From the IMG/VR virus record IMGVR_UViG_3300042934_000313, positions 1-61,491 of that record: a stretch of DNA of 61,491 nucleotides. The stretch is one strand, 5' to 3'. The translations under genes and the position numbers were made by a program. Position 1 is the stretch's first letter, and each line of letters opens with the position of its first letter. Shown here in pieces: positions 2,955 to 60,327 of this stretch. The notes under the pieces are model-generated. The model was given only the letters and a program-made list of their open reading frames with translations. It was not told where the DNA came from and did not search any database. The stretch is from a virus. Lineage: Duplodnaviria; Caudoviricetes.

Positions 2955-4718
2955 ATGCCGCGCGTAGCGCAGTACGAGTCGCAGGTGATTGCGACGCCGA
3001 AGGGGCGGGCCGTAGTTGCCGCCGCGCGCCGGATGGGCCGCACCGATACCAAGATTCGTGGAGAGTCCGGGTGGCAGAACCGCGCCTGGCTCTGGTACGA
3101 CACCATCGGTGAGTTCCGGTTCTCGTGCGCCTGGGTCGGGAACGTCCTCTCGCGCGCGCGGCTTCGCGTGTTCCAGGGGGACAAGGAGGTCAAGAGCGGC
3201 CCGGCCCTCGATGCCCTCCATGCACTCTTCGGTGGACTCGATGGGCAGAAGGAGATGTTCCGTCAGTTGGGCATCCAGTTCACTGTCGCGGGCGAGGCGT
3301 ACATCGTCGGAGAAGACGGCGGGGCCGAGCCGACCGACAAGTGGTGGGTCGTCGCGGCATCCGAACTCTCGAAGTCTGGCGATGTCGTGAAGATCGGCAA
3401 GAAGGAGATTGACGACCCGCTCGTCGTCCGTCTGTGGCGTCCGCACCCCCGCGTGAACAAGGACCCCGACTCTCCGGCGCGCGCGGTGCTCCCGGTCCTG
3501 GCTGAAATCGACGGCCTCACCAAGCACGTCGCCGCGCAGATCGACTCGCGCCTGGCCGGTGCGGGCATCCTGCTCCTGCCCGACAACATCTCGTTCGCGA
3601 CCACGGCGACGACGAATAGCGAGGACGACACATCCGGGCTCGCCGCGATCGACCCGTTCCTCGACGAACTCATGCAGACGATGATGACCGCGATCAAGAA
3701 TCGCGAGGACCCGTCTGCCCTCGTGCCGATTCTCCTCCAGGCCAACGGCGAGTATCTGGACAAGGTGCGTCACCTGACCTTCTCCACCCCGCTCGACCAG
3801 CAGGCGATCGAACTCCGCAAGGAAGCGATCCGCCGCCTGGCCCTCGGCATGGACATGCCTCCGGAGGTCCTGACGGGCACTGGGGACGTGAATCACTGGG
3901 GGGCTTGGCAGATTGAGGATGCCTCGATCAAGGCGCACACAGAGCCGCTCCTCCAGATCATCGTGCAGTCGCTCACCGAGGGCTACCTCTGGCCGTACCT
4001 TGAAGACGACATGGACGAGGAGGCGGCACGCGAGTTCCACTTCGTCGCCGACACGTCGCAGATGCGCCTGCGCCCGGACCGCTCGAAGGAGGCTGTCGAA
4101 CTCTTCGACCGCGCCGTGCTGAGTGAGGACGCCCTGCTCGTCGAGAACGGCTTCGCTCCCGGCGACAAGATGACCGACAAGGACCGGACTGAGTTCTTCA
4201 AGCGCAAGGTCGCCTCGGGCATGACCACGCCGGAACTCGTTGCCGCCGCACTCTCACTCCTGGGCGTGAACCTGCCGGTCGAGCAGATCACCGTCTCCGA
4301 GCGTGAGCACCCGGCCGTCGACATCCCCTCGCTCGAAGGACACCCGGACCGGAACCCGCCCGACCCGACCGCGCGCCGTCACCGTCGCACCGAGGAAGCG
4401 GGCATGGCCGAGGTCGTCGTCATCCGCGCACTGGAGCGGGCAGGCAACCGGATCAAGTCGAAGTACAAGGACCGGATCAGCATGGGCGCGGAGAACGTGG
4501 CACCGCACACGCTCCACCGCTTCACCATGACCATGACGCCGACTCAGATCGACGACGTGCTCCTGGACGCCTGGACCATCCTCGGCAACCTGCCGAAGAT
4601 GGAGACGATCACCGCCATGATGCTCGACCGCTACGTGCGCATGCTGTTCGCCAACAACCTGCCGCACGAAAGTCGGACTTTCCGGGCCTTCCTGGAAGCC
4701 GAGCCCGATGGAGACTGA
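2955..4718 (+). CDS. Portal protein
   Basis: 587 aa following terL; IRRLALGMDMPPEVLTG and NHWGAWQI portal-like motifs. Confidence 0.85.
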   Translation: MPRVAQYESQVIATPKGRAVVAAARRMGRTDTKIRGESGWQNRAWLWYDTIGEFRFSCAWVGNVLSRARLRVFQGDKEVKSGPALDALHALFGGLDGQKEMFRQLGIQFTVAGEAYIVGEDGGAEPTDKWWVVAASELSKSGDVVKIGKKEIDDPLVVRLWRPHPRVNKDPDSPARAVLPVLAEIDGLTKHVAAQIDSRLAGAGILLLPDNISFATTATTNSEDDTSGLAAIDPFLDELMQTMMTAIKNREDPSALVPILLQANGEYLDKVRHLTFSTPLDQQAIELRKEAIRRLALGMDMPPEVLTGTGDVNHWGAWQIEDASIKAHTEPLLQIIVQSLTEGYLWPYLEDDMDEEAAREFHFVADTSQMRLRPDRSKEAVELFDRAVLSEDALLVENGFAPGDKMTDKDRTEFFKRKVASGMTTPELVAAALSLLGVNLPVEQITVSEREHPAVDIPSLEGHPDRNPPDPTARRHRRTEEAGMAEVVVIRALERAGNRIKSKYKDRISMGAENVAPHTLHRFTMTMTPTQIDDVLLDAWTILGNLPKMETITAMMLDRYVRMLFANNLPHESRTFRAFLEAEPDGD

Positions 4719-7026
4719 GGAGTTCGCGGCTCGTCGTCGCGCGCAGTTCGTAGAGGTCGACAAGGAACTCGGCCCCTTCGCTCAGCGCGCAATGACCATG
4801 TACGCGAATGGACGTGCGACCTGGAGTGATGAACTCCTGGATGCCGCCGAGGTCATCTGGCGCGAGGTCTTCGAGACTGAGGCCCCGAACGCTGACCCGG
4901 AGCGGTACGTCAATCGGTTCCGCGAGAGCGTGGGCAAGGCGCTGTCCAACACCACGCGGCCGGAAGGTCCGCCGACCCAGGGGCAGATCGACCGGGTGAC
5001 CATGTGGCTCGGCACCTACACGGTGAACGACGCCACCTGGAGCGGAGTCGGCGCGCGTGGCGGTCGCTTCAAGAAGTGGGTGACCATGCACGACAGCGCC
5101 GTGCGCGAGAGCCACCGGCCTGTCGATGGACAGATCGTCCCGATCGGGGCAACATTCAACGTAGGCGCATTCGACCTTCGCTTCCCTGGCGATCCGGTCG
5201 GACCGCCCGAGTTGTGGATCAACTGCCGTTGCGTCATCCAGCCCGCGGCACGAGTAGGGGAGGCCAGCATGAGCCCGACGACCTTCGCGATCGAGGATGA
5301 CGAGAACGTCATCGAAGAGGGGCCGGTCACCGGTCCGGACGACCTCGACGACGAGATGCCGCCTGACGAGCCGGAGGAGGACGAGGAACTCATCACCGAG
5401 ATTCCCGTCCACGGCACGCTCGCGCCGGAGGGGGTGGCAACCGGCGACGGCCGCATGTTCGCGGACGGTGGCCTGTCCAACCGTGACCTTCCGCTCCCGA
5501 TCGCGTACCAGTTGCAGTCGGGCGAGGGTCACTCCAACTCCGTGACCGTGGGCCGCATCGACGAAATCTTCCGCGAGGGCAACCTCATGCAGTTCCGCGG
5601 TGCGCTCATGCTGAACCGCGACGCATCGGCTGAGGTCATCGACGGCATCATCGACGGTACTGTCCGCGGCATCTCCGTCGACGTGGATGACGTGGAAGTC
5701 GACATGGAGGCGGTCGCCTACGAGTCGGAGGTCGACACCGGCAAGGCCCCGATGACCGTGTTCAAGACCGCGCGCATCGCGGGCGTGACCATCGTCCCGA
5801 TCCCGGCGTTCCAGGAGGCGTTCATCGCTCTCGGCCACGAGTGGCCCGAGGAGTCCGAGGACGAACTCTCGCCGGAGGAGGCTCTCGCCGCCTGTGGTTG
5901 CAAGGGTCCTGAGGACGACGAGAACCCCGACATCGAACTCGGCTACGACGCCGTTGCGGCATCCGCCTTCGCCCCCGGCACCAAGGACGGACCGGGGTGG
6001 ATCACTCACCCGGTGCCGACCGCGCGCATCCGGCGCTACTGGGTGCACGGCAAGGGTGCGGCGAAGATTCGCTGGGGCCTCGGCGCTCCTGGCGGTGACT
6101 TCAACCGGTGCCGTCGCCAGTTGGCGAAGTACGTCCAGAACCCGAAGTGGCTCGCTGGGCTGTGCGCCAACATGCACAAGGAGGCCACCGGCTTCTGGCC
6201 GGGCTCGAAGGTGAACCGTGCCGCCCTCATGGCATCCGGCGAACCGGCTCCGATCTTCAACCTCGTGGCGTCGGCGTCGTACGTGTTCGACTCGAACGCC
6301 TTCAAGCGGCAGGAAATGGCTGAGCCGCGCGTGGGCGTTGAGGTCGAGGGCGATCACGTCTACGGCTACATCGCACAGTGGGGCGTCTGCCACATCGGCA
6401 TCCAGGGCGTGTGCACCACCGCTCCGCACTCGCTCTCGGACTACTGGTACTTCGCCACCGGCAAGGTCGACACCGAGGAGGGCACTGTCCGCGTCGGCCA
6501 GATCACGATGGACACCGGGCACGCGTCCATGCGCGCGAACGCGAAGGTCGCCGCCGCGCACTACGACAACACCGGTGCCGCCGCCGCAGACGTGGCTGTC
6601 GGCGAGGATGAGTTCGGCATCTGGTTCTCCGGCGTCCTCCGCTCGAAGGTCACCGACGAACAGCGCCACGCTCTCCGCGCGGCCGGTCGGGTCAGTGGTG
6701 ACTGGCGTCAGATCGGTCATGACCTGGAACTCGTCGCCGCGCTCGCGGTGAACGTCCCCGGCTTCCCGATCCCACACGTCCGCGCGGGTGTCTACAACGG
6801 CGAGCAGGTGTCGCTGGTCGCGGCTGGCCTGTTCGACGACCCCGACGAGGCGATCAAGACGGTGATCGAGAAGGACCAGTTCTCGGCCACCGAGGTCGTC
6901 GGCATTATCCGGTCGACCGTCGCGGAGTACCGCCACCAGGAGAAGCGGGCTGTGCAGGCCGCGCCGATCCGGCAGGCGCTTCGCCAGAAGAAGATCGAGT
7001 CCCTTCGCTCGAAGATCAAGGAGTAG
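4708..7026 (+). CDS. MuF-like head morphogenesis domain fused to capsid maturation protease
   Basis: MuF C-terminal motif (KKWVT..D..VR.SH...DGQ...FPGDP...INCRC) followed by a prohead protease-like region (VGRID...GISVD...AGVTIVPIPAF). Confidence 0.8.
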   Translation: METEEFAARRRAQFVEVDKELGPFAQRAMTMYANGRATWSDELLDAAEVIWREVFETEAPNADPERYVNRFRESVGKALSNTTRPEGPPTQGQIDRVTMWLGTYTVNDATWSGVGARGGRFKKWVTMHDSAVRESHRPVDGQIVPIGATFNVGAFDLRFPGDPVGPPELWINCRCVIQPAARVGEASMSPTTFAIEDDENVIEEGPVTGPDDLDDEMPPDEPEEDEELITEIPVHGTLAPEGVATGDGRMFADGGLSNRDLPLPIAYQLQSGEGHSNSVTVGRIDEIFREGNLMQFRGALMLNRDASAEVIDGIIDGTVRGISVDVDDVEVDMEAVAYESEVDTGKAPMTVFKTARIAGVTIVPIPAFQEAFIALGHEWPEESEDELSPEEALAACGCKGPEDDENPDIELGYDAVAASAFAPGTKDGPGWITHPVPTARIRRYWVHGKGAAKIRWGLGAPGGDFNRCRRQLAKYVQNPKWLAGLCANMHKEATGFWPGSKVNRAALMASGEPAPIFNLVASASYVFDSNAFKRQEMAEPRVGVEVEGDHVYGYIAQWGVCHIGIQGVCTTAPHSLSDYWYFATGKVDTEEGTVRVGQITMDTGHASMRANAKVAAAHYDNTGAAAADVAVGEDEFGIWFSGVLRSKVTDEQRHALRAAGRVSGDWRQIGHDLELVAALAVNVPGFPIPHVRAGVYNGEQVSLVAAGLFDDPDEAIKTVIEKDQFSATEVVGIIRSTVAEYRHQEKRAVQAAPIRQALRQKKIESLRSKIKE

Positions 7027-7187: not shown

Positions 7188-7260
7188 ATCGGACGCTCCG
7201 GGAAAAGCGGGCTGGTCTCCAAAACCGGCTGACGGCGGGGTTCGACTCCTCGGTCCGGTG
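7188..7260 (+). tRNA. tRNA-Trp(CCA)-like, non-canonical D arm
   Basis: Acceptor ATCGGAC/GTCCGGT, anticodon arm CTGGT-CTCCAAA-ACCGG, T arm CGGGG-TTCGACT-CCTCG; no encoded 3' CCA. Confidence 0.65.
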
Positions 7261-7268
7261 CAGACAGG

Positions 7269-26846: not shown

Positions 26847-26916
26847 CGCTGGTTGTAGACCAGTTGCGCTCCGCACGTAGTGCCGAAAGTCTGACTTTCT
26901 CACGTGAGGAACCATC

Positions 26917-44365: not shown

Positions 44366-44507
44366 TTTGTGACAGGTCTGCTCTATACATGAAACAACGT
44401 CACTGTGTCACAGGTTGTGACGTTGTGACACAAGTTGCGTACTCAGAGAAGGCCCTAGGTTGTGACGTTGTGACGTTGTTTCATGTAAAGGGGTGACGTG
44501 TCACAAC
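44366..44507. repeat. Putative replication origin: GTTGTGAC iterons plus an 18-bp inverted repeat
   Basis: Tandem GTTGTGAC copies; TACATGAAACAACGTCAC (44386-44403) / GTGACGTTGTTTCATGTA (44470-44487); adjacent to the helicase stop. Confidence 0.6.
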
Positions 44508-45643
44508 TACGGCGTCGGCTTCAACTTCATGGACTGATACCAGCCCCGCTCGGGCGCATCGAGGAGCCCGGACTTGGCCATGCGAGAGACGGTCTGACGG
44601 ACGACATCCTTCCTCTGCTCGGGGAACTCCTGGTAGATGTGGTTCAGCGACACCGCCCCCTGCTGGGCGTCTACCCACTCCTTGATAGCGCCCTTCAACC
44701 AGCCCTCTCTGCGGTCCTCAGTGCCCGATGCGAGCACGTCGCCGACCGTCCTGGTACTTGCCCCCAGCCACTCGATTCTCGGGACGCTACCGACCTCTCC
44801 GCTGTCGTGCTCGTGGTCGTACGAGTGGACGCGGTACGTGTAGTTCTTCCCGTTCCTGGCGTAGTTCCCCTTCGTGTTGCCGAACGTCACGTCGGTGTAC
44901 TCGACGTTCGGATCGGGCTCGTCCATGGCGAACAGCAGGGTGCCGCGCGTGGCATCCACCCACGCCGCTGATCCCGTGACCGCCGTCCTCGCGTTGCTCA
45001 CCGACTTGTTGATATGAGCGATGCCGATGATCGTGATGTTCTTCCGCTGGGCCAACTGGTTCAGCGGGTCGATGAGTTCGCGGACATCGACGTTGGAGTT
45101 CGGGTCCCGGCCCGCCGCCATGGCTGACAGGAGCGGGTCGATGATGACCAACTTCGCGTTGACCTCCTCGATCTTCTCTTCCAGCAGGGCCAGGTCCTCG
45201 GGGAACTTCGGCATCGTGATCCCGTTCATCGACTTCATGGCGATGCCGAAGATGTGGAACCGCGTGGTGTCTACGCCATTCGCCTGCGCCCTCGGAAGCA
45301 CCACGTCCTCGATGCCGTCCTCGTGGCTGACATAGAGCACGTCGCCCGGCTCGTTGCCGAGCGTCTGCATCTCGCCGCGCGTGACCTTGCCCGCGAACCA
45401 GATCGAGAACGTCGACTTGCTGACGCCGCCCATCCCGGCGAAGATGACGGCCGCGCCCATCGGGATCAGCCCATCCCAGAGCCACGCCATTTTCCTGGAC
45501 CGGAAGTTGGCGAGCGTCTGGACCACGCCCTGCTTCGCGGGTACGGCATCCTCCAGCGCCGACTCGTAGATGCCAACGTTGTCGTCGTGCGTCTTGTGGC
45601 TGACCGTCTCGTAGATGTTCGGCCACTCACTGCTCTCGGTCAC
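44507..45643 (-). CDS. RepA-like (AAA_25) helicase with C-terminal winged helix
   Basis: WLWDG.IP, Walker A GMGGVSKS, LVIIDP, IAH.NK, GS.AW...R, KGNY. Confidence 0.85.
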   Translation of the reverse strand: MTESSEWPNIYETVSHKTHDDNVGIYESALEDAVPAKQGVVQTLANFRSRKMAWLWDGLIPMGAAVIFAGMGGVSKSTFSIWFAGKVTRGEMQTLGNEPGDVLYVSHEDGIEDVVLPRAQANGVDTTRFHIFGIAMKSMNGITMPKFPEDLALLEEKIEEVNAKLVIIDPLLSAMAAGRDPNSNVDVRELIDPLNQLAQRKNITIIGIAHINKSVSNARTAVTGSAAWVDATRGTLLFAMDEPDPNVEYTDVTFGNTKGNYARNGKNYTYRVHSYDHEHDSGEVGSVPRIEWLGASTRTVGDVLASGTEDRREGWLKGAIKEWVDAQQGAVSLNHIYQEFPEQRKDVVRQTVSRMAKSGLLDAPERGWYQSMKLKPTP

Positions 45644-55260: not shown

Positions 55261-55379
55261 GTTCTTTCTCTCTCTCCTGTGGAAAGTCAGACTTTCTGAC
55301 TTGGGCCAGACAGCCCACGCGGCCCCCCTCCAGAGACGGATAAAGGGGGGCCGCGTGCAGTGGCTGGACGCAGGTGGGA

Positions 55380-56645: not shown

Positions 56646-57140
56646 TCAGACTTTCTGGGGCTCGGCATCCCGGACAGCGGGACGCTGACGCCACTTCTCC
56701 TCGTGCCCCGTGCGTGCAGGCACGCCGAGGGCGAGGTTGAGTTCGTACACCGAGAGCGGCGTCTCGTGACGGGACAGCACGACTTCGGTGCCCATCGAGT
56801 GGTCGTGCGCGGCGTGGCCGAGGAGCACGATGAGTCGGCCGATGGAGACCCACTGCGGCTCATACGTGAACTCCTGAGAGTCCACCCCTTGGCAGTCGCA
56901 CCCGTTGCACTCGAACGTGACCCAGTGCTCGTTGTCCGTCTCCGAGACGGCTCGGTAGTACAGCAGAGCGGCCACCTGTTCGGGCGTACGCGGCTGTGTG
57001 ATGAGCGGCTTGCAGACCTTGCAGGTGACCTTCTTGAGCACCTGCGTGGAGTTGCCGCTCTGTTGGCAGGCGTTGAAGGTGAACGCCGAGTTGTCGACCG
57101 CGTTCACGTCCCTCACCGCCGAGGCGATTTGCCAGTGCAT
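56646..57140 (-). CDS. Cys-rich hypothetical protein
   Basis: (AG)n-AAGG RBS; VTCKVC; stop lies inside a palindrome copy. Confidence 0.65.
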   Translation of the reverse strand: MHWQIASAVRDVNAVDNSAFTFNACQQSGNSTQVLKKVTCKVCKPLITQPRTPEQVAALLYYRAVSETDNEHWVTFECNGCDCQGVDSQEFTYEPQWVSIGRLIVLLGHAAHDHSMGTEVVLSRHETPLSVYELNLALGVPARTGHEEKWRQRPAVRDAEPQKV

Positions 57141-57255
57141 GATTTCCTTCTCTCTCTCTCTTCTCTGTGGTTCGGACTTGGAGAAAGTCCGACTTTTTGG
57201 GTGCCGATTCGCGGGCACAGCAAGCACCCCGAGTTTCTTCGGGGTGCCCACTCTG

Positions 57256-57480
57256 TCAGCGAGGTTCGCCGTGGCAGATGCCTCCGGCATCCGCGATCTG
57301 GTCGGTGCACGCAGGGACGCCGTTGAAGGGGTCCGCGTGGTCGATCGCGAACTGTGCCGCCATGCCGAGGCAGAAGGCGACGAGTGACGCGACGATGACC
57401 GTGATCACGGCATCCCAGCGGACGAAGAATCCTGAGCGGTGACGCACGCGGTATCCGGTGCTGTCGACTTCGGTTTCCAT
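57256..57480 (-). CDS. Small membrane protein
   Basis: Single TM; (AG)n tract. Confidence 0.6.
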   Translation of the reverse strand: METEVDSTGYRVRHRSGFFVRWDAVITVIVASLVAFCLGMAAQFAIDHADPFNGVPACTDQIADAGGICHGEPR

Positions 57481-57530
57481 GAATCTCTCTCTCTTGTGTC
57501 GGTCCGGAAAGTCGGACTTTTTGGCTGGCT

Positions 57531-57686
57531 TCCCGGAGGGCGCGACAGACAGAGGCCGGACGCGGAAGTCCTAGGTCCGAGCGTTGAGCGGATATCCCGC
57601 CGCGCGGAGAGCGTGCCTGTCGTGCCGTCGAGAAAGTCAGACTTTTTCGAGTGAGACCCAGGCGCGTTGAAGCGCCCTGTCTGGGA
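57531..57686. ncRNA. Candidate structured non-coding element B
   Basis: No credible ORF; closing stem 57531-57543/57672-57686 with nested hairpins. Confidence 0.35.
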
Positions 57687-57688
57687 TG

Positions 57689-57981
57689 AGCGTTAGTCGC
57701 CAAGTCACGGCACGCCTGGTCAGCGATTGGTGAGTTCGTCCCACGTCGTGCCGTGGATTCGGTGCGCGTAGGACGCGCGAGCACGGACGAGGGATTCGGC
57801 GGGCGTCAGCATGGCGTCGCGTTCGAGGGCGGCACGCTCGGAGTTCGCCCGAGTGAAGTCGGGCGACGCGATGAGTGCGCCGAGTTCGTCGAAGGTGAAG
57901 CGGTACTCAGTCATGGTGCCTCGTTTCTGGAAAGTCTGGACTTTCTGGGAGAGGGCATGCCGTGGCTAAGCGACTAACGCT
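57689..57981 (-). repeat. Cassette 3: complementary arms 57954-57981 and 57689-57716 enclosing one gene
   Basis: 28-bp duplex on the - strand: 24 WC, 2 G.U, 2 mismatches. Confidence 0.85.
57720..57914 (-). CDS. Hypothetical protein (cassette 3 cargo)
   Basis: GAGG RBS. Confidence 0.65.
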   Translation of the reverse strand: MTEYRFTFDELGALIASPDFTRANSERAALERDAMLTPAESLVRARASYAHRIHGTTWDELTNR

Positions 57982-57987
57982 TGTCCG

Positions 57988-58386
57988 GTGAGTCAGTAGC
58001 CAAGTCACGGCACGCCAATGGATTAGATGCGGGAGAGTCGCTGGTATTCATTGTCGGCGGCGAGCATGCGCGCTTCCAGGAGGTCGACGCGATCGAAGTC
58101 GCGACGGTCCAGGGCGTTATCAGTGTGGTTGCTCAGCAGGATGCACAGATTGCTCAGGCGTCCGAGACGTGCCTCATCCGTCTCGCTGGGCGTGACGGTC
58201 ACCGTGAACCCGAGGTTCAGCAGGTGAGAGAGGGTCGCGTCGAGCACGGCACGGTTGATCGTTCGAGTCTGGTCAGTGCCACCCTCGAAGGGGGCGTGAA
58301 CAGTGAGAGTGATCATGTTGTCCTCGATTCTCAGAAAGTCTGGACTTTCTGGGTTGAGGCATGCCGTGGCTAAGCCACTGACTCAC
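57988..58386 (-). repeat. Cassette 2: complementary arms 58358-58386 and 57988-58016 enclosing one gene
   Basis: 29-bp duplex on the - strand: 24 WC, 3 G.U, 2 mismatches. Confidence 0.85.
58023..58316 (-). CDS. Hypothetical protein (cassette 2 cargo)
   Basis: GAGGA RBS. Confidence 0.65.
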   Translation of the reverse strand: MITLTVHAPFEGGTDQTRTINRAVLDATLSHLLNLGFTVTVTPSETDEARLGRLSNLCILLSNHTDNALDRRDFDRVDLLEARMLAADNEYQRLSRI

Positions 58387-58388
58387 TT

Positions 58389-59208
58389 TCGGATACGGGA
58401 TCGCTAGATAGTCCGGTCCCTCATGACGTGTGGAAGCGGTCGCTTCCGGTCAACACGTCGGTACTACGAGGGTGTTGCGGGACTACTCGGCGACGGAGAC
58501 GGCGGCGTTGGCCAGCAGGTCGCGCAGAGCGGCCTTCTGGTCGGCCGTCAGGCCGTCGAGCGTAGGGATCACCTGGAGGACGGCGACGATCGAGTCGAAC
58601 GTGATCGCCTCGTCGGCGTCCTTGTCGTTCGATCCACGAGCGCCCTTCTGATCGGCGTCGGCCTTCTTGTCGGCCTTCAACTTCTCCGTCTGCTTCTGGA
58701 ACGTCGAAGCAGGGTCGGCACCGTTCAGGATCGCCTCAATGGCGGGGATGACGTAGTTCTCTTCCTTCTTGCGGAAGGACTGCGACGCGAGGTTGAAGGA
58801 CGCCTTGGCGATGCCGTAGACATCGGCGTTCGTGGCCTCGTTGACGTCGACGTTCGCGCGGAGCATGTACTTCCACGCGTTGACCAGGTTGGTCACGCCG
58901 GGAACCGAGAGCGGTGCCTCGTGGTGACGACGGAGCGCCTCGTTGGCGTGCTTCGCGAACGTCTCCTTGAGTTCGGCCGCCTCTTTCCCTTCGGTCGAGC
59001 CGACGTACATGTACGTCAGACGTGCCTGGTGGAAGCGGAGCGAACCGCTGTCGGAGATGTTCGCGAACTCCTCGGCGATCTGGTCGATCGTCTTGGTCGC
59101 GGTCTGGACGGGGGCAGTTGCGGTCTTAGCCATGATGGCTCTCTCTTTCTGTCCAGAAAGTCTGGACTTTTTGAGAGGGACCGGACTACCTAGTCATCCC
59201 GTATCCGA
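58389..59208 (-). repeat. Cassette 1: complementary arms 59175-59208 and 58389-58422 enclosing one gene
   Basis: 34-bp duplex, 31/34 WC plus 1 G.U and a 2x2 internal loop. Confidence 0.9.
58483..59133 (-). CDS. Hypothetical protein (cassette 1 cargo, probable first early gene)
   Basis: 216 aa; strong codon bias; AGAAAGAGAGAG tract. Confidence 0.8.
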   Translation of the reverse strand: MAKTATAPVQTATKTIDQIAEEFANISDSGSLRFHQARLTYMYVGSTEGKEAAELKETFAKHANEALRRHHEAPLSVPGVTNLVNAWKYMLRANVDVNEATNADVYGIAKASFNLASQSFRKKEENYVIPAIEAILNGADPASTFQKQTEKLKADKKADADQKGARGSNDKDADEAITFDSIVAVLQVIPTLDGLTADQKAALRDLLANAAVSVAE

Positions 59209-59210
59209 GT

Positions 59211-59320
59211 CACTGAGAGACGCCGATGAGTGTCGGTATCGAGCCGCCAGGATTTTCCGGGTGGACCGAAGTCCAAGCCGTCAGCGGGGAGGCACCGATT
59301 GATGGGTGTCTCTCAGAGTG
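59211..59320 (-). ncRNA. Candidate structured non-coding element A
   Basis: Closing stem 59213-59224/59305-59316; internal UGGAC-UUCG-GUCCA hairpin on the - strand (59262-59275). Confidence 0.45.
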
Positions 59321-59853
59321 CGTTATCAGCAGAGGTATCCGGTCGCTGACCGCGTGTGCGGGGTCGTTGGATCATGCTGTCTCAGGCCATGCGGCCCGCG
59401 TTTTATCGGGGCTCAGACAATGCTGTAGCCACGCCCTCGCGTCGCGCGCGGGGGATTTTTTGAAAAAGTCCCGACTTTTTGGACCTCCAGTCCTCGTTTC
59501 GTTGTACCCCCAGTCTAGGGGTACAGCCCGCCGAATGCAACAGCGGCACTACGCTCTCCGTCTTGCTGTGCACATGCCTCATGGGGAACATAATGTGGTA
59601 CGGAATATACGAGGAGAGGTACAGACGTTATGTCCCACGGAATGGGCGGCGGGAGCCGCCAACACGGATGGTGCAGGGTCGAGAGTGGTGGGGGTAGAGC
59701 AGGGGGACTAGACAAGACAGAGGAAGATTCACGAGAGGGCCAAGAAAGCCCTGATCAGTAGCCGATACAAGGGCATCTAGGGGGATACCGCGCGTGAAAT
59801 ACCCCCATAGCGCGTACACTGCTAAGTGATACCTCCTACGATATGATTGAGGG

Positions 59854-60327
59854 ATGGAACAGCCGAGCAACGTCACTCCCCTCCGCCAGATCGGGCAGGT
59901 CATGGGTACCGGGGAACCGGTCCTGGGACCGAAGCCCTACACGGGGCAGAGACGCAAGGCGGCGAAGAAAGGACATCGCGTGGCCATGGTGGACTTCGAC
60001 CTCTTCATGCGGGTCGAGATGACGAACGCAGAGCACCAGGTGTACGCCGCGATCGTGCGGCACATCCCCGACCGGGGCGGCATCGAGTCGCGTATCGGCG
60101 TCGGCGAGATTGCCCAGATGCTCGGCGTCAAGCAGCCGAACGTCAGCCGCGTGATCAAGGACCTGCTGGAGCGCAACCTCATCCGCCGCGTCCGTCAGGG
60201 CGTCTGGCTGGTGAACCCGCACCTGGTCTACAACGGCGAGTTCGTGGAGTGGAACGAGAGCCTCTCGCACTGGGACGAGCCGGTCTATGCTCGTAACGTG
60301 GACCAGAACACGGGAGAGGTCAAGTAG
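59854..60327 (+). CDS. HTH DNA-binding protein (RepL/MarR-like winged helix)
   Basis: EIAQMLGVKQPNVSRVIKDLLERNLI...WLVNPHLVYNG; TATGAT 6 nt before the ATG (leaderless). Confidence 0.75.
   Translation: MEQPSNVTPLRQIGQVMGTGEPVLGPKPYTGQRRKAAKKGHRVAMVDFDLFMRVEMTNAEHQVYAAIVRHIPDRGGIESRIGVGEIAQMLGVKQPNVSRVIKDLLERNLIRRVRQGVWLVNPHLVYNGEFVEWNESLSHWDEPVYARNVDQNTGEVK

What the first reader, a model, noticed from the sequence alone, without database searches (positions are those of the whole stretch)
57689..59208. Array of single-gene cassettes, each closed by its own long-range complementary stem
Seen: three consecutive - strand genes are each bracketed by an upstream and a downstream arm that are reverse complements. 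Gene 59133-58483 has arms 59175-59208 and 58389-58422 (31/34 WC, about 750 nt apart). Gene 58316-58023 has 58358-58386 and 57988-58016. Gene 57914-57720 has 57954-57981 and 57689-57716. Cassettes are separated by only 2-6 nt. Cassettes 2 and 3 share the inner half of the stem, but their outer halves differ with compensatory changes (GUGAGUCAGUGGC/GCUACUGACUCAC vs GCGUUAGUCGC/GCGACUAACGC). Their G.U pairs fall on the sense strand and both keep the same U-U and C-A mismatches. Cassette 1 uses an unrelated sequence for the same architecture, which points to selection on pairing. Known: RNase III cuts long-range stems that loop out 16S/23S rRNA, whereas T7 early sites are local hairpins. Inference: the early polycistronic RNA folds into gene-sized loops that are excised as end-protected (possibly circularised) monocistronic mRNAs. 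I do not know this architecture from phage mRNAs.
Basis: partly seen in the sequence, partly recalled or inferred. Interest (0 to 1): 0.9.

Follow-up and report, generated by a model that had tools for sequence, protein, structure and literature searches.

The report
Gene-sized RNA loops in phage operon
In a soil actinophage and its relatives, the first genes of one operon are each bracketed by long complementary arms that co-evolve to stay paired, which probably folds the messenger RNA into gene-sized closed loops for cutting or end protection.

Summary
Three adjacent minus-strand genes (58483-59133, 58023-58316, 57720-57914) of a complete 61.5-kb high-GC phage are each bracketed by 28-34-nt complementary arms. 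These are the three best long-range inverted repeats in the genome.

- **Conservation:** All 10 related metagenomic loci keep the first closure, and 7 keep a second-class one.
- **Covariation:** It is strong. Class 1 has 18 of 35 pairs changed on both sides. Class 2 has 14 of 29. In both, 0 of 500 shuffles reach the observed value.
- **Folding:** Minimum-energy, centroid and consensus folds all close each cassette.
- **Cargo:** Class-2 arms enclose unrelated small genes in different phages. A co-occurring strain seems to lack cassette 3 exactly.

Best reading, at 0.55: these are sense-strand long-range dsRNA stems that host RNase III cuts, or that protect mRNA ends. No cleavage has been shown. 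Circularisation has no support, because the phage encodes no RNA ligase. DNA-level module exchange is the main rival.

I class it as a new variant of a known kind: rRNA-type or B. subtilis-type long-range RNase III stems, here arrayed around phage genes. I found no description of this arrangement in my literature searches.

The parts
59175..59208 (-). Cassette 1 upstream arm (class 1)
   Evidence: Pairs with 58389-58422, 31/34 Watson-Crick. It is conserved and covaries in 11 sequences. It forms the closing helix in the MFE, centroid and RNAalifold consensus folds.
59156..59171 (.). 16-nt palindrome GAAAGTCNNGACTTT(C/T), 22 nt upstream of the cassette 1 start codon, inside the loop
   Evidence: It is one of four 16-mer variants of the genome-wide 15-mer palindrome. 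It is absent upstream of the homologous gene in several relatives (alignment).
58483..59133 (-). Cassette 1 cargo: 216-aa protein of unknown function
   Evidence: ORF. No Pfam or PHROG match. Homologues at 48-62% identity in 10 loci. Atlas neighbours are viral hypotheticals.
58425..58459 (-). Small local G+C-rich hairpin between the stop codon and the downstream arm
   Evidence: Read and formed in the MFE and centroid folds. By eye, similar hairpins are present in some relatives.
58389..58422 (-). Cassette 1 downstream arm (class 1)
58358..58386 (-). Cassette 2 upstream arm (class 2)
   Evidence: Pairs with 57988-58016. Covariation in 9 class-2 cassettes. Closing helix in the fold. An RNA-library contig covers 58188-58380.
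58334..58349 (.). 16-nt palindrome, 17 nt upstream of the cassette 2 start codon
58023..58316 (-). Cassette 2 cargo: 97-aa protein, no known family
   Evidence: No similarity to the other class-2 cargo ORFs that were compared.
57988..58016 (-). Cassette 2 downstream arm (class 2)
57954..57986 (-). Cassette 3 upstream arm (class 2; core 57954-57981)
57930..57945 (.). 16-nt palindrome, 15 nt upstream of the cassette 3 start codon
57720..57914 (-). Cassette 3 cargo: 64-aa protein, no known family
57684..57716 (-). Cassette 3 downstream arm (class 2; core 57689-57716)
   Evidence: One DNA contig of run X2 joins 57687 to 57989, skipping the whole of cassette 3.
59209..59517 (-). Untranslated leader from a candidate promoter (invariant TAGACT at 59512-59517) to the cassette 1 upstream arm. 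It holds the fourth 16-mer palindrome at 59464-59479.
   Evidence: Alignment of 7 loci. The fold is not unusual (z -0.90). The promoter role is inference.

Best explanation
The leftward operon is transcribed from the divergent control region near 59.5 kb, through the upstream arm of cassette 1 and onwards. In that sense-strand RNA, each upstream arm pairs with the arm just after its own gene. This gives a 29-34-bp duplex that closes a loop of 240-750 nt holding one gene, sometimes with a mini-ORF.

- **Structure:** Each duplex is about two to three helical turns long and has conserved non-Watson-Crick pairs near its middle. That is the form of a bacterial RNase III substrate.
- **Proposed mechanism:** Host RNase III most likely cuts within the stems. 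This would release monocistronic mRNAs whose 5' and 3' ends stay paired by the conserved inner half of the stem, and so are shielded from end-dependent RNases.
- **Specificity:** The cassette-specific outer halves make each gene close on itself and not on its neighbour.
- **Modularity:** The arms, with the short palindrome and ribosome-binding site, form a stable scaffold in which cargo genes have been exchanged.

What is shown: complementarity, its conservation, covariation, the predicted folds and cargo turnover. What is inferred: that pairing happens in RNA, that RNase III cuts the stems, and that the ends are protected.
For: 1. **The arms are real and outstanding in the genome**.
2. **The class-1 closure is conserved.** It is present in 10 of 10 related loci, whose cargo protein is 48-62% identical.
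3. **Class-1 covariation.** 88.0% of 375 cells are paired. 18 of 35 pairs changed on both sides, against a shuffled mean of 8.3, with 0 of 500 shuffles as high. Controls with the partner slid by 1-3 columns give 0-3 such pairs and 28-42% paired.
4. **Class-2 covariation.** 89.7% of 261 cells are paired. 14 of 29 pairs changed on both sides, against a shuffled mean of 6.0, with 0 of 500 as high. Slid controls give 0-4.
5. **RNAalifold finds the class-1 closing helix unprompted** (columns 17-48 with 827-861).
6. **Single-sequence folds close each cassette.** This holds for both MFE and centroid. For cassettes 2 and 3 they do not form the local hairpin between neighbouring arms. z-scores are -7.06 and -9.90 from 20 shuffles each.
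7. **Wobbles favour the sense strand.** G.U or U.G occurs at 12 pair positions (37 cells). A.C or C.A occurs at 3 positions (17 cells). This is my tally.
8. **Both classes share a geometry.** Although unrelated in sequence, both place conserved non-canonical pairs at about positions 14-15 from the outer end. In class 1 this is A.C in 11/11, plus G.G in 4/11. In class 2 it is U.G in 9/9 and U-U in 9/9.
9. **This fits what is written about RNase III.** The idealised E. coli substrate is 22 bp, and loops or mismatches at target sites restrict cleavage to one strand (passages of PMC3867540).
10. **A bacterial precedent exists.** B. subtilis RNase III cuts mRNA duplexes of 10-36 bp whose strands lie up to 505 nt apart (section 24 of PMC11780869).
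11. **The upstream arm is probably co-transcribed with its gene.** Several relatives have no palindrome between the arm and the cassette 1 gene, so transcription there must enter through the arm. One RNA-library contig also joins cassette 2 coding sequence to 23 of the 29 nt of its upstream arm (weak).
12. **The phage encodes no integrase or resolvase** that could act on the arms as DNA sites.
Against: - No cleavage site, transcript end or RNase III dependence has been observed.
- The host is unknown, so its RNase III is assumed. The only support is that PF00636 is found in the Corynebacterium glutamicum control genome.
- The antisense strand folds with the same closing helices, so thermodynamics does not pick the strand.
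- The wobble asymmetry rests on few independent events. In each class one conserved A.C or C.A pair would be a wobble on the other strand.
- The two RNA-library contigs end at 58380 and 59157, not at the middle of a stem. The second does not reach the cassette 1 upstream arm. Contigs cannot show ends and may come from DNA.
- Many arm positions never vary (11 of 35 pairs and 12 of 29). This would also fit a sequence-specific protein.
- Cargo turnover and the exact absence of cassette 3 in a variant are just what a DNA-level module system would give.
- Only this small phage group, and perhaps Curtobacterium phage Sunfish, shows the feature.
Confidence: 0.55

Rival explanations
1. The arms pair in the sense RNA but are not cut. 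The closed loops would act as structural insulators or stabilisers. Each cistron folds and is translated independently of its neighbours. Alternatively, the duplex is bound by a phage or host dsRNA-binding factor that times expression.
For: All the pairing evidence applies equally. Conserved sequence and conserved mismatches in the stem centre could be a protein recognition site, or antideterminants that block RNase III. The review passages note that RNase III-like proteins can also act without cutting. The hok mRNA is a known case where a 5'-3' long-distance stem closes and stabilises a whole mRNA (passages of PMC9841398).
Against: A 29-34-bp duplex is longer than the 22-bp idealised substrate. 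It lies within the 10-36-bp range of duplexes that are cut in vivo in B. subtilis, so escape from RNase III would need special features. The Shine-Dalgarno sequences lie outside the arms, so hok-like sequestration of the ribosome-binding site is not seen.
Confidence: 0.2
2. The arms work at the DNA level as module boundaries. Conserved flanks would promote exchange, gain and loss of small accessory genes between co-infecting phages, as PeSL motifs do in T4-type phages. Complementarity between the two arms would then be kept by gene conversion, by inversion-type recombination, or by descent from palindromic junction sites.
For: - Class-2 arms enclose at least 7 unrelated cargo genes in 9 cassettes.
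- One cargo (L009 and L015, 69% identical) sits in two different arm subtypes.
- A contig of a co-occurring strain skips exactly cassette 3 (57687 joined to 57989, depth 30 against about 64).
- The phage encodes a Rad52-family annealing protein.
- PeSL-mediated shuffling is established for T4-type phages (abstracts of PMC2839356 and PMC4122927).
Against: - Recombination at conserved flanks needs direct identity between phages. It does not need complementarity between the two flanks of one gene, so it does not explain 32 pairs with compensatory changes.
- The variable, cassette-specific halves lie next to the junction and the conserved halves lie next to the gene. This is the reverse of a crossover site.
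- The spacers differ in length (2 and 6 nt).
- The phage has no integrase or resolvase.
- No strand-switching joints appeared in four runs (contigs only).
- Arms 240-750 bp apart cannot extrude as a cruciform.
- Conserved G.U wobbles would be mismatches in DNA.

This rival can be true in addition to the RNA role. The cargo turnover is real.
Confidence: 0.15
3. The two arms of a cassette are a pair of binding sites, in inverted orientation, for a sequence-specific DNA-binding protein that loops or insulates each gene.
For: Many arm positions are invariant. A winged-helix (MarR-like) protein is encoded divergently at 59854-60327.
Against: - Two unrelated arm classes share the same architecture.
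- Lineage-specific changes at many different positions are always matched on the partner arm. The protein's specificity would have to drift in step at each of them.
- Arms of 29-34 nt are long for one operator.
- The abundant short palindrome is the more obvious protein site.
Confidence: 0.05

Closest known systems
RNase III processing stems formed by distant segments: the stems that loop out 16S and 23S rRNA (textbook, recalled), and the long-range intramolecular mRNA duplexes cut by B. subtilis RNase III (PMC11780869, section 24 read)
   Same: A duplex of two to three helical turns forms between sequences hundreds of nucleotides apart and brackets a functional RNA. The duplex lengths of 29-34 bp fall in the reported range of 10-36 bp. 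Wobble pairs are present.
   Different: - The loops here enclose protein-coding genes of a phage.
- They stand head to tail, 2-6 nt apart.
- They come in two arm classes with swappable cargo.
- Spans reach 752 nt, against the reported maximum of 505 nt.
- Cleavage is not shown.
RNase III processing signals of the bacteriophage T7 early polycistronic mRNA (five signals in a precursor of about 7000 nt; passage of PMC3867540. Their local-hairpin form is recalled.)
   Same: The position is the same: between the first genes of a phage operon. The presumed outcome is the same: monocistronic mRNAs with structured, protective ends. Both have an internal non-canonical region in the middle of the helix.
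   Different: T7 signals are local hairpins that lie between genes. Here the two strands of each helix lie on either side of a gene, so the gene itself is looped out and both of its ends would end up in one helix.
PeSL regulatory cassettes of T4-type phages (abstracts of PMC2839356 and PMC4122927)
   Same: Repeated regulatory motifs flank small, variable genes of unknown function. Indels and replacements between close relatives map to them.
   Different: A PeSL is a sigma-70-like promoter plus a local terminator stem-loop, and it acts by homologous recombination. Here no such promoter was found (0), the stems are long-range, and their two halves co-evolve.
tac/fbi closure of the hok mRNA (passages of PMC9841398)
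   Same: A long-distance 5'-3' interaction closes and stabilises a whole mRNA. As I recall the original studies, it is supported by covariation.
   Different: hok closure sequesters the ribosome-binding site of a toxin mRNA and is relieved by 3' trimming. Here the ribosome-binding sites are outside the arms, the stems are much longer, and they occur in series.
Integron gene cassettes with attC sites (recalled)
   Same: An array of promoterless small genes, each carrying its own imperfect inverted-repeat element with conserved unpaired bases. Cargo is highly variable.
   Different: An attC is a local hairpin at the 3' end of each cassette and is recombined by IntI. Here the repeat halves flank the gene, and the phage has no tyrosine recombinase.
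Start-associated short inverted repeats of actinophages (Cluster EG Microbacterium phages and Cluster O mycobacteriophages; passages of PMC7302621)
   Same: The 15-16-nt palindrome inside each cassette, 15-22 nt before the start codon, matches this known kind in position and size (14-22 bp upstream in Cluster EG).
   Different: This concerns only the short palindrome, not the long-range arms. The passages I saw do not mention the arms. The supplementary figures of that paper were not seen.

Membership tests
Long-range RNase III processing stem (rRNA type / B. subtilis mRNA type) | Duplex of about 20 bp or more formed by segments far apart in one transcript | tested here: met
   Complementary arms of 34, 29 and 28-33 nt lie 752, 341 and 237 nt apart. 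They form the closing helices in the MFE and centroid folds.
Long-range RNase III processing stem (rRNA type / B. subtilis mRNA type) | Pairing maintained in evolution | tested here: met
   18 of 35 and 14 of 29 pairs have changes on both sides, with 0 of 500 shuffles as high. RNAalifold recovers the helix.
Long-range RNase III processing stem (rRNA type / B. subtilis mRNA type) | Staggered cuts on both strands (2-nt 3' overhang) that depend on RNase III | not testable with these tools
   Only assembled contigs of one RNA library were available. They cannot show ends.
Long-range RNase III processing stem (rRNA type / B. subtilis mRNA type) | RNase III available in the infected cell | tested here: inconclusive
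   The phage encodes none and the host is unknown. No relative was found in bacterial genomes. PF00636 is present in the actinobacterial control genome Corynebacterium glutamicum.
T7-type early RNase III signal | Local hairpin between two cistrons | tested here: not met
   The possible local hairpin between the cassette 2 downstream arm and the cassette 3 upstream arm is not chosen in the MFE or centroid fold. The cassette 1 and cassette 2 arms at their junction are unrelated in sequence.
PeSL regulatory cassette | Strong sigma-70-like promoter joined to a terminator stem-loop | tested here: not met
   No promoter-like site was found in 57000-60000. That scan uses an E. coli consensus, which is a weak test for an actinobacterial host. 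No minus-strand terminator-like site was listed there.
PeSL regulatory cassette | Indels and gene replacements between relatives map to the motif | tested here: met
   Unrelated cargo lies between class-2 arms. One contig skips cassette 3 exactly (single contig, 30 letters on the shorter side, likeness threshold 88).
hok-type 5'-3' mRNA closure | The closure locks the ribosome-binding site in an inactive fold | tested here: not met
   The Shine-Dalgarno regions lie 30-40 nt inside the loops and are not part of the arms.
Integron cassette / attC | IntI-type tyrosine recombinase, and a local attC hairpin after each gene | tested here: not met
   PF00589 gives 0 matches in the complete genome. 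The repeat halves flank the genes.
Start-associated short inverted repeat of actinophages (applies to the palindrome only) | Inverted repeat of 15-18 bp, many copies, in short intergenic regions about 14-22 bp before start codons | tested here: met
   There are 34 copies of the 15-mer with up to 2 mismatches, against 0.16 expected, and 4 copies of the 16-mer. They lie 22, 17 and 15 nt before the three start codons. The description is in PMC7302621.

The most novel reading that the evidence does not exclude
The arms are a portable RNA-level cassette scaffold.

- **Self-addressing stems:** The variable outer halves act as address labels, so that each cistron in a tandem array closes only on itself.
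- **Processing:** RNase III, or an unknown factor that reads the conserved central mismatches, excises 'panhandle' mRNAs with paired ends. In the boldest form, a host ligase then closes them into circles.
- **Cargo exchange:** Phages trade cargo genes in and out of the scaffold.

This would make it an RNA-structure counterpart of integron cassettes for early or accessory phage genes. The 26-bp closure around gene 121 of Curtobacterium phage Sunfish hints that it may be widespread in this actinophage supergroup.
Probability: 0.2. Interest if true: 0.85.

Novelty: new variant of a known kind. Interest (0 to 1): 0.68.

Why it matters
- **A second solution to an old problem.** Phages need to turn one long early transcript into separately stable, separately translated messages. 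T7 does this with local hairpins between genes. Here the gene itself would be looped out, as ribosomal RNAs are.
- **Comparative evidence from mRNAs.** It would give strong comparative evidence for base pairing over hundreds of nucleotides in bacterial-type mRNAs. [quoted passage not shown]
- **A ready-made part.** It would also be a natural, modular 'insulator' part: arms, palindrome and ribosome-binding site, with exchangeable cargo.
- **A route to experiments.** The analogous stem in the cultured Curtobacterium phage Sunfish makes this testable.
- **If the DNA rival is right.** The arms would then be a new kind of module boundary for gene exchange in actinophages.

Tried and rejected
- **GenBank relatives of the cassette region:** none by DNA or by protein.
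- **Bacterial genomes:** no relative of the cassette 1 protein.
- **Rfam:** no family in the window.
- **Pattern scan for class-2 downstream arms in viral contigs:** 85 stretches matched. A partner upstream-arm motif occurs in only one of them, L058, which is the contig of L008. I take the other 84 to be chance matches.
- **Leader 59205-59485 as a structured RNA:** the fold is not unusual (z -0.90).
- **Similar closures in related cultured phages:**
  - Kithara: none flanking gene 99.
  - Squash: only its own short palindromes.
  - Beagle: a 20-nt pair around gene 131 overlaps its palindrome motif, so I did not count it.
  - Sunfish: one good candidate. It has no GenBank relatives to test covariation.
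- **Strand choice by energy:** the antisense strand also folds into the closures, so this test does not discriminate.
- **Transposon reading:** I saw no conserved target-site duplication beside the arms when reading. No recombinase was found.
- **Cassette 1 protein function:** no Pfam, PHROG or informative Atlas neighbour. The nearest named cluster, DUF3102, scores 0.89, which is only a lead.
- **RNA run X4:**
  - Parts of the 3.5-kb stretch without cover say nothing.
  - The contig ends at 58380 and 59157 are not evidence of RNA ends.
  - A third X4 piece (58651-58683, loose ends on both sides) probably belongs to another organism.
- **Low-share runs X5-X24:** not used as evidence.
- **Literature:**
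  - The searches found no description of gene-bracketing long-range stems in phage mRNAs.
  - These searches cover only the held library and are not exhaustive.
  - Supplementary files were not seen. Table S3 of PMC11780869 and Figs S10 and S13 of PMC7302621 could bear on how common gene-bracketing duplexes or such repeats are.
- **Limits of the cargo comparison:** the script compared the longest forward ORF of each cassette. For L006 and L009 that was a wrong frame. L009 against L015 was redone. The real 45-aa ORF of L006 was not compared with the others by any tool.
Full report
**What the window is.** The window is a complete virus record of 61,491 bp with direct terminal repeats and about 64% G+C.
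- Structural genes run rightwards.
- A long block of small genes runs leftwards from about 59.1 kb.
- Its large terminase is 45-53% identical to those of lytic Curtobacterium, Arthrobacter and Microbacterium phages. The host is therefore probably an actinobacterium of that kind, but it is not known.
- The region of the finding has no GenBank phage match by DNA or protein.
- The three genes have no Pfam or PHROG family.

- Cassette 1: 34 nt, 31/34 Watson-Crick, 752 nt apart.
- Cassette 2: 29 nt at 83%, 341 nt apart.
- Cassette 3: 28 nt, extendable to 33 nt at 82%, 237 nt apart.
- The cassettes are separated by 2 and 6 nt.
- In my G.U-tolerant scan of the whole genome, the three score 28.3, 21.9 and 21.6. 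The other 23 hits free of the palindrome score 15.0-18.3.
- The feature is confined to the first three genes of the leftward block.

**A second repeat is present and is a known kind.** Each cassette holds a 16-nt palindrome 15-22 nt before its start codon.
- It is a variant of a 15-nt palindrome that occurs 34 times in the genome, against 0.16 expected.
- Short start-associated inverted repeats like this have been described for Cluster EG Microbacterium phages and Cluster O mycobacteriophages (passages of PMC7302621).
- Sunfish, Kithara, Squash and Beagle each have their own version.
- The long-range arms are a separate feature.

**Relatives.** Searches with the 216-aa cassette 1 protein found ten distinct related loci in IMG/VR and JGI metagenomes, at 48-62% identity. 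L010 duplicates L005.
- All ten have complementary arms of 28-37 nt flanking the homologous gene.
- Seven also have one complete class-2 cassette directly after it: L005, L006, L008, L009, L013, L014 and L015.
- L011 and L012 end just after a class-2 upstream arm.
- L007 has none.

**Covariation.**
- Class 1: on the alignment of 11 whole class-1 cassettes (A2), the helix I wrote from the window's own arms is paired in 88.0% of 375 cells.
  - 18 of 35 pairs show changes on both sides, with 0 of 500 shuffles as high.
  - Sliding the partner by 1-3 columns leaves 0-3 such pairs.
  - L008 has a 3-nt insertion in both arms that the alignment cannot register, which costs a few cells.
  - RNAalifold, given no structure, predicts the same helix. 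15 of its 29 closing pairs carry double changes.
- Class 2: on 9 cassettes (A3), 89.7% of 261 cells pair and 14 of 29 pairs have double changes.
  - 0 of 500 shuffles are as high, and slid controls give 0-4.
- Caveat: the sequences are related, so the shuffle counts are not probabilities. The slid controls and the number of different positions involved still make chance or shared descent an unlikely explanation.

**Conserved irregularities.**
- Class 1 keeps an A.C opposition in 11/11 sequences, a neighbouring G.G in 4/11, and a G.U five pairs further in, in 9/11.
- Class 2 keeps U.G in 9/9, an adjacent U-U in 9/9, a third mismatch three or four pairs further in (C.A in 5, A.G in 4), and another U.G in 6/9.
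- In both classes the first irregular pairs lie at about positions 14-15 from the outer end. The outer helix is therefore about one turn long, and the inner one is 14-19 bp.
- Across both classes, G.U-type pairs occur at 12 pair positions and A.C-type pairs at 3. G.U pairs in the sense RNA but not in the antisense. This favours the sense strand but rests on few independent events.

**Folding.**
- The minus-strand RNA of cassette 1 (839 nt), and of cassettes 2 and 3 together (713 nt), folds with each cassette closed by its own arms. This holds in both the MFE and the centroid structure. z-scores are -9.90 and -7.06 from 20 shuffles.
- The local alternative is a hairpin between the shared inner halves of the cassette 2 downstream arm and the cassette 3 upstream arm. 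The folds do not use it.
- The plus strand gives the mirror-image closures, so energy does not decide the strand.

**Cargo turns over.**
- The class-2 loops hold small ORFs of 45-97 aa, with no detectable similarity among those compared.
- The exception is the Cys-rich protein of L009 and L015, which is 69% identical (E 2e-25). It sits in two different arm subtypes.
- L005, L006, L009 and L013 share the upstream arm, the downstream arm and a conserved 15-22-aa mini-ORF before the downstream arm. They differ in the main ORF (sequences printed).
- In soil DNA run X2, one contig of a second strain joins 57687 to 57989, which removes cassette 3 as a unit. Its depth is about 30, against about 64 for the main strain. 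This is a single contig with 30 letters on the shorter side, laid at likeness 88, so it is a hint.

**RNA library.** One soil metatranscriptome run (X4) has contigs 98-99% identical to 58188-58380 and to 58852-59157.
- The first contig covers cassette 2 coding sequence, the palindrome and 23 of 29 nt of the upstream arm.
- The second covers cassette 1 coding sequence up to the palindrome.
- This is compatible with transcription through the cassette 2 upstream arm.
- Contigs show neither ends nor strand, and DNA carry-over cannot be excluded.

**What the phage encodes.** Searches of the complete genome found no integrase, resolvase, RNase III, RNA ligase or RtcB. It does encode a Rad52-family protein, AAA ATPases, and SPFH and VWA proteins.

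**Where transcription probably starts.** Upstream of cassette 1 lies a block conserved in 7 of 7 aligned loci, with an invariant TAGACT at 59512-59517.
- I take it as the likely promoter of the leftward operon.
- That would put the cassette 1 upstream arm about 300 nt into the transcript.
- In several relatives no palindrome lies between arm and gene, so the gene must be transcribed through its upstream arm.

**Mechanism.** The simplest account of two unrelated arm classes sharing one geometry is base pairing in the sense transcript. The shared features are matched changes on both sides, sense-biased wobbles, and positions just outside the coding sequences.
- Duplexes of 29-34 bp exceed the 22-bp idealised RNase III substrate.
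- Mismatches at target sites are known to restrict cutting to one strand, and single-strand cuts can leave protective structures (passages of PMC3867540).
- B. subtilis RNase III cuts mRNA duplexes of 10-36 bp whose strands lie up to 505 nt apart (PMC11780869, section 24).
- I therefore favour RNase III processing into monocistronic mRNAs whose two ends remain paired by the conserved inner half-stem (0.55).
- Uncut closures that insulate or stabilise come next (0.2).
- The different outer halves of the neighbouring cassettes 2 and 3 make sense as a way to stop an arm from pairing with the wrong partner.
- A purely DNA-level role (0.15) explains the cargo turnover but not the complementarity. 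The turnover may simply be recombination within a conserved scaffold, filtered by selection for intact closures.

**Comparison with known systems.**
- It works like the stems that loop out rRNAs, and like the T7 early processing signals. It differs from T7 in being long-range, and from rRNA stems in enclosing arrayed, exchangeable protein genes.
- It resembles PeSL cassettes in flanking variable small genes, but lacks their promoter-terminator make-up.
- It resembles hok closure in joining the mRNA ends, but does not sequester the ribosome-binding site.
- It is not an integron.
- My four literature searches found no description of this arrangement. That is a limited search of an open-access library.

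**Verdict.** This is a real, conserved, covarying structure with an inferred RNA-processing role, and a new variant of a known kind. Interest is 0.68: high for its clean comparative support and testability, held back by the absence of any direct RNA evidence and by its narrow known distribution.

Noticed in passing
window, genome-wide (e.g. 4668-4682, 26885-26899, 55282-55296; list); 16-mers at 57930, 58334, 59156, 59464: The palindrome GAAAGTCNGACTTTC occurs 34 times with up to 2 mismatches, against 0.16 expected. A 16-nt variant with a 2-nt centre occurs only at the three cassettes and once upstream of them. It is the same kind as the start-associated inverted repeats described for Cluster EG and Cluster O actinophages (PMC7302621). 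The divergently encoded MarR-like winged-helix protein (59854-60327) is a candidate binder. That is inference.
   Followed up: partly
window 59505-59618 (minus strand), invariant TAGACT at 59512-59517: A sequence block conserved in 7 of 7 aligned loci lies upstream of cassette 1. It may be the promoter and leader of the leftward operon. No E. coli-type promoter was called there.
   Followed up: partly
L017 33907-33933 and 34957-34982 (Curtobacterium phage Sunfish, record about 63906-63932 and 64956-64981): A complementary pair of about 26 nt, with one bulge, brackets gene 121. That gene is the first leftward gene and encodes a 247-aa hypothetical protein unrelated to the cassette 1 protein. 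This is the same architecture in a cultured phage with unrelated sequences. There are no GenBank relatives to test covariation.
   Followed up: partly
L005 about 4928-4978, L006 4873-4920, L009 about 4936-4995, L013 (3' end of class-2 loops): A conserved mini-ORF of 15-22 aa, starting MT(E/D)DIT(D/Q)W, overlaps the stop of the variable main ORF and ends just before the downstream arm. It is present in four relatives and absent from the window's cassettes (sequences).
   Followed up: no
window 44367-44412 and 44461-44506: This is the longest inverted repeat in the genome (46 nt, 83%, 48 nt apart). It is rich in TGTGAC(A/G) words and lies just upstream of the AAA_25 (DnaB/RepA-like) gene at 44507-45643. 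It may be a replication origin.
   Followed up: no
window 57423-57506: The second strain in DNA run X2 also skips 82 nt here (depth 26.7, one contig). That removes the start region of the 74-aa ORF 57256-57480, up to the next palindrome.
   Followed up: no
window 58340 and 59164: In the same X2 variant strain, one base is missing inside the palindromes of cassettes 2 and 1. This would turn the 16-mers into the common 15-mer form (table 4).
   Followed up: no
window 7188-7261: A single tRNA-Trp (CCA) gene lies among the structural genes.
   Followed up: no
L009 4784-4939 and L015 1894-2043: The cargo shared by two class-2 cassettes is a protein of about 50 aa with two CxxG/CPxCG-like cysteine pairs. 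By eye it looks like a zinc ribbon. The two copies are 69% identical.
   Followed up: partly
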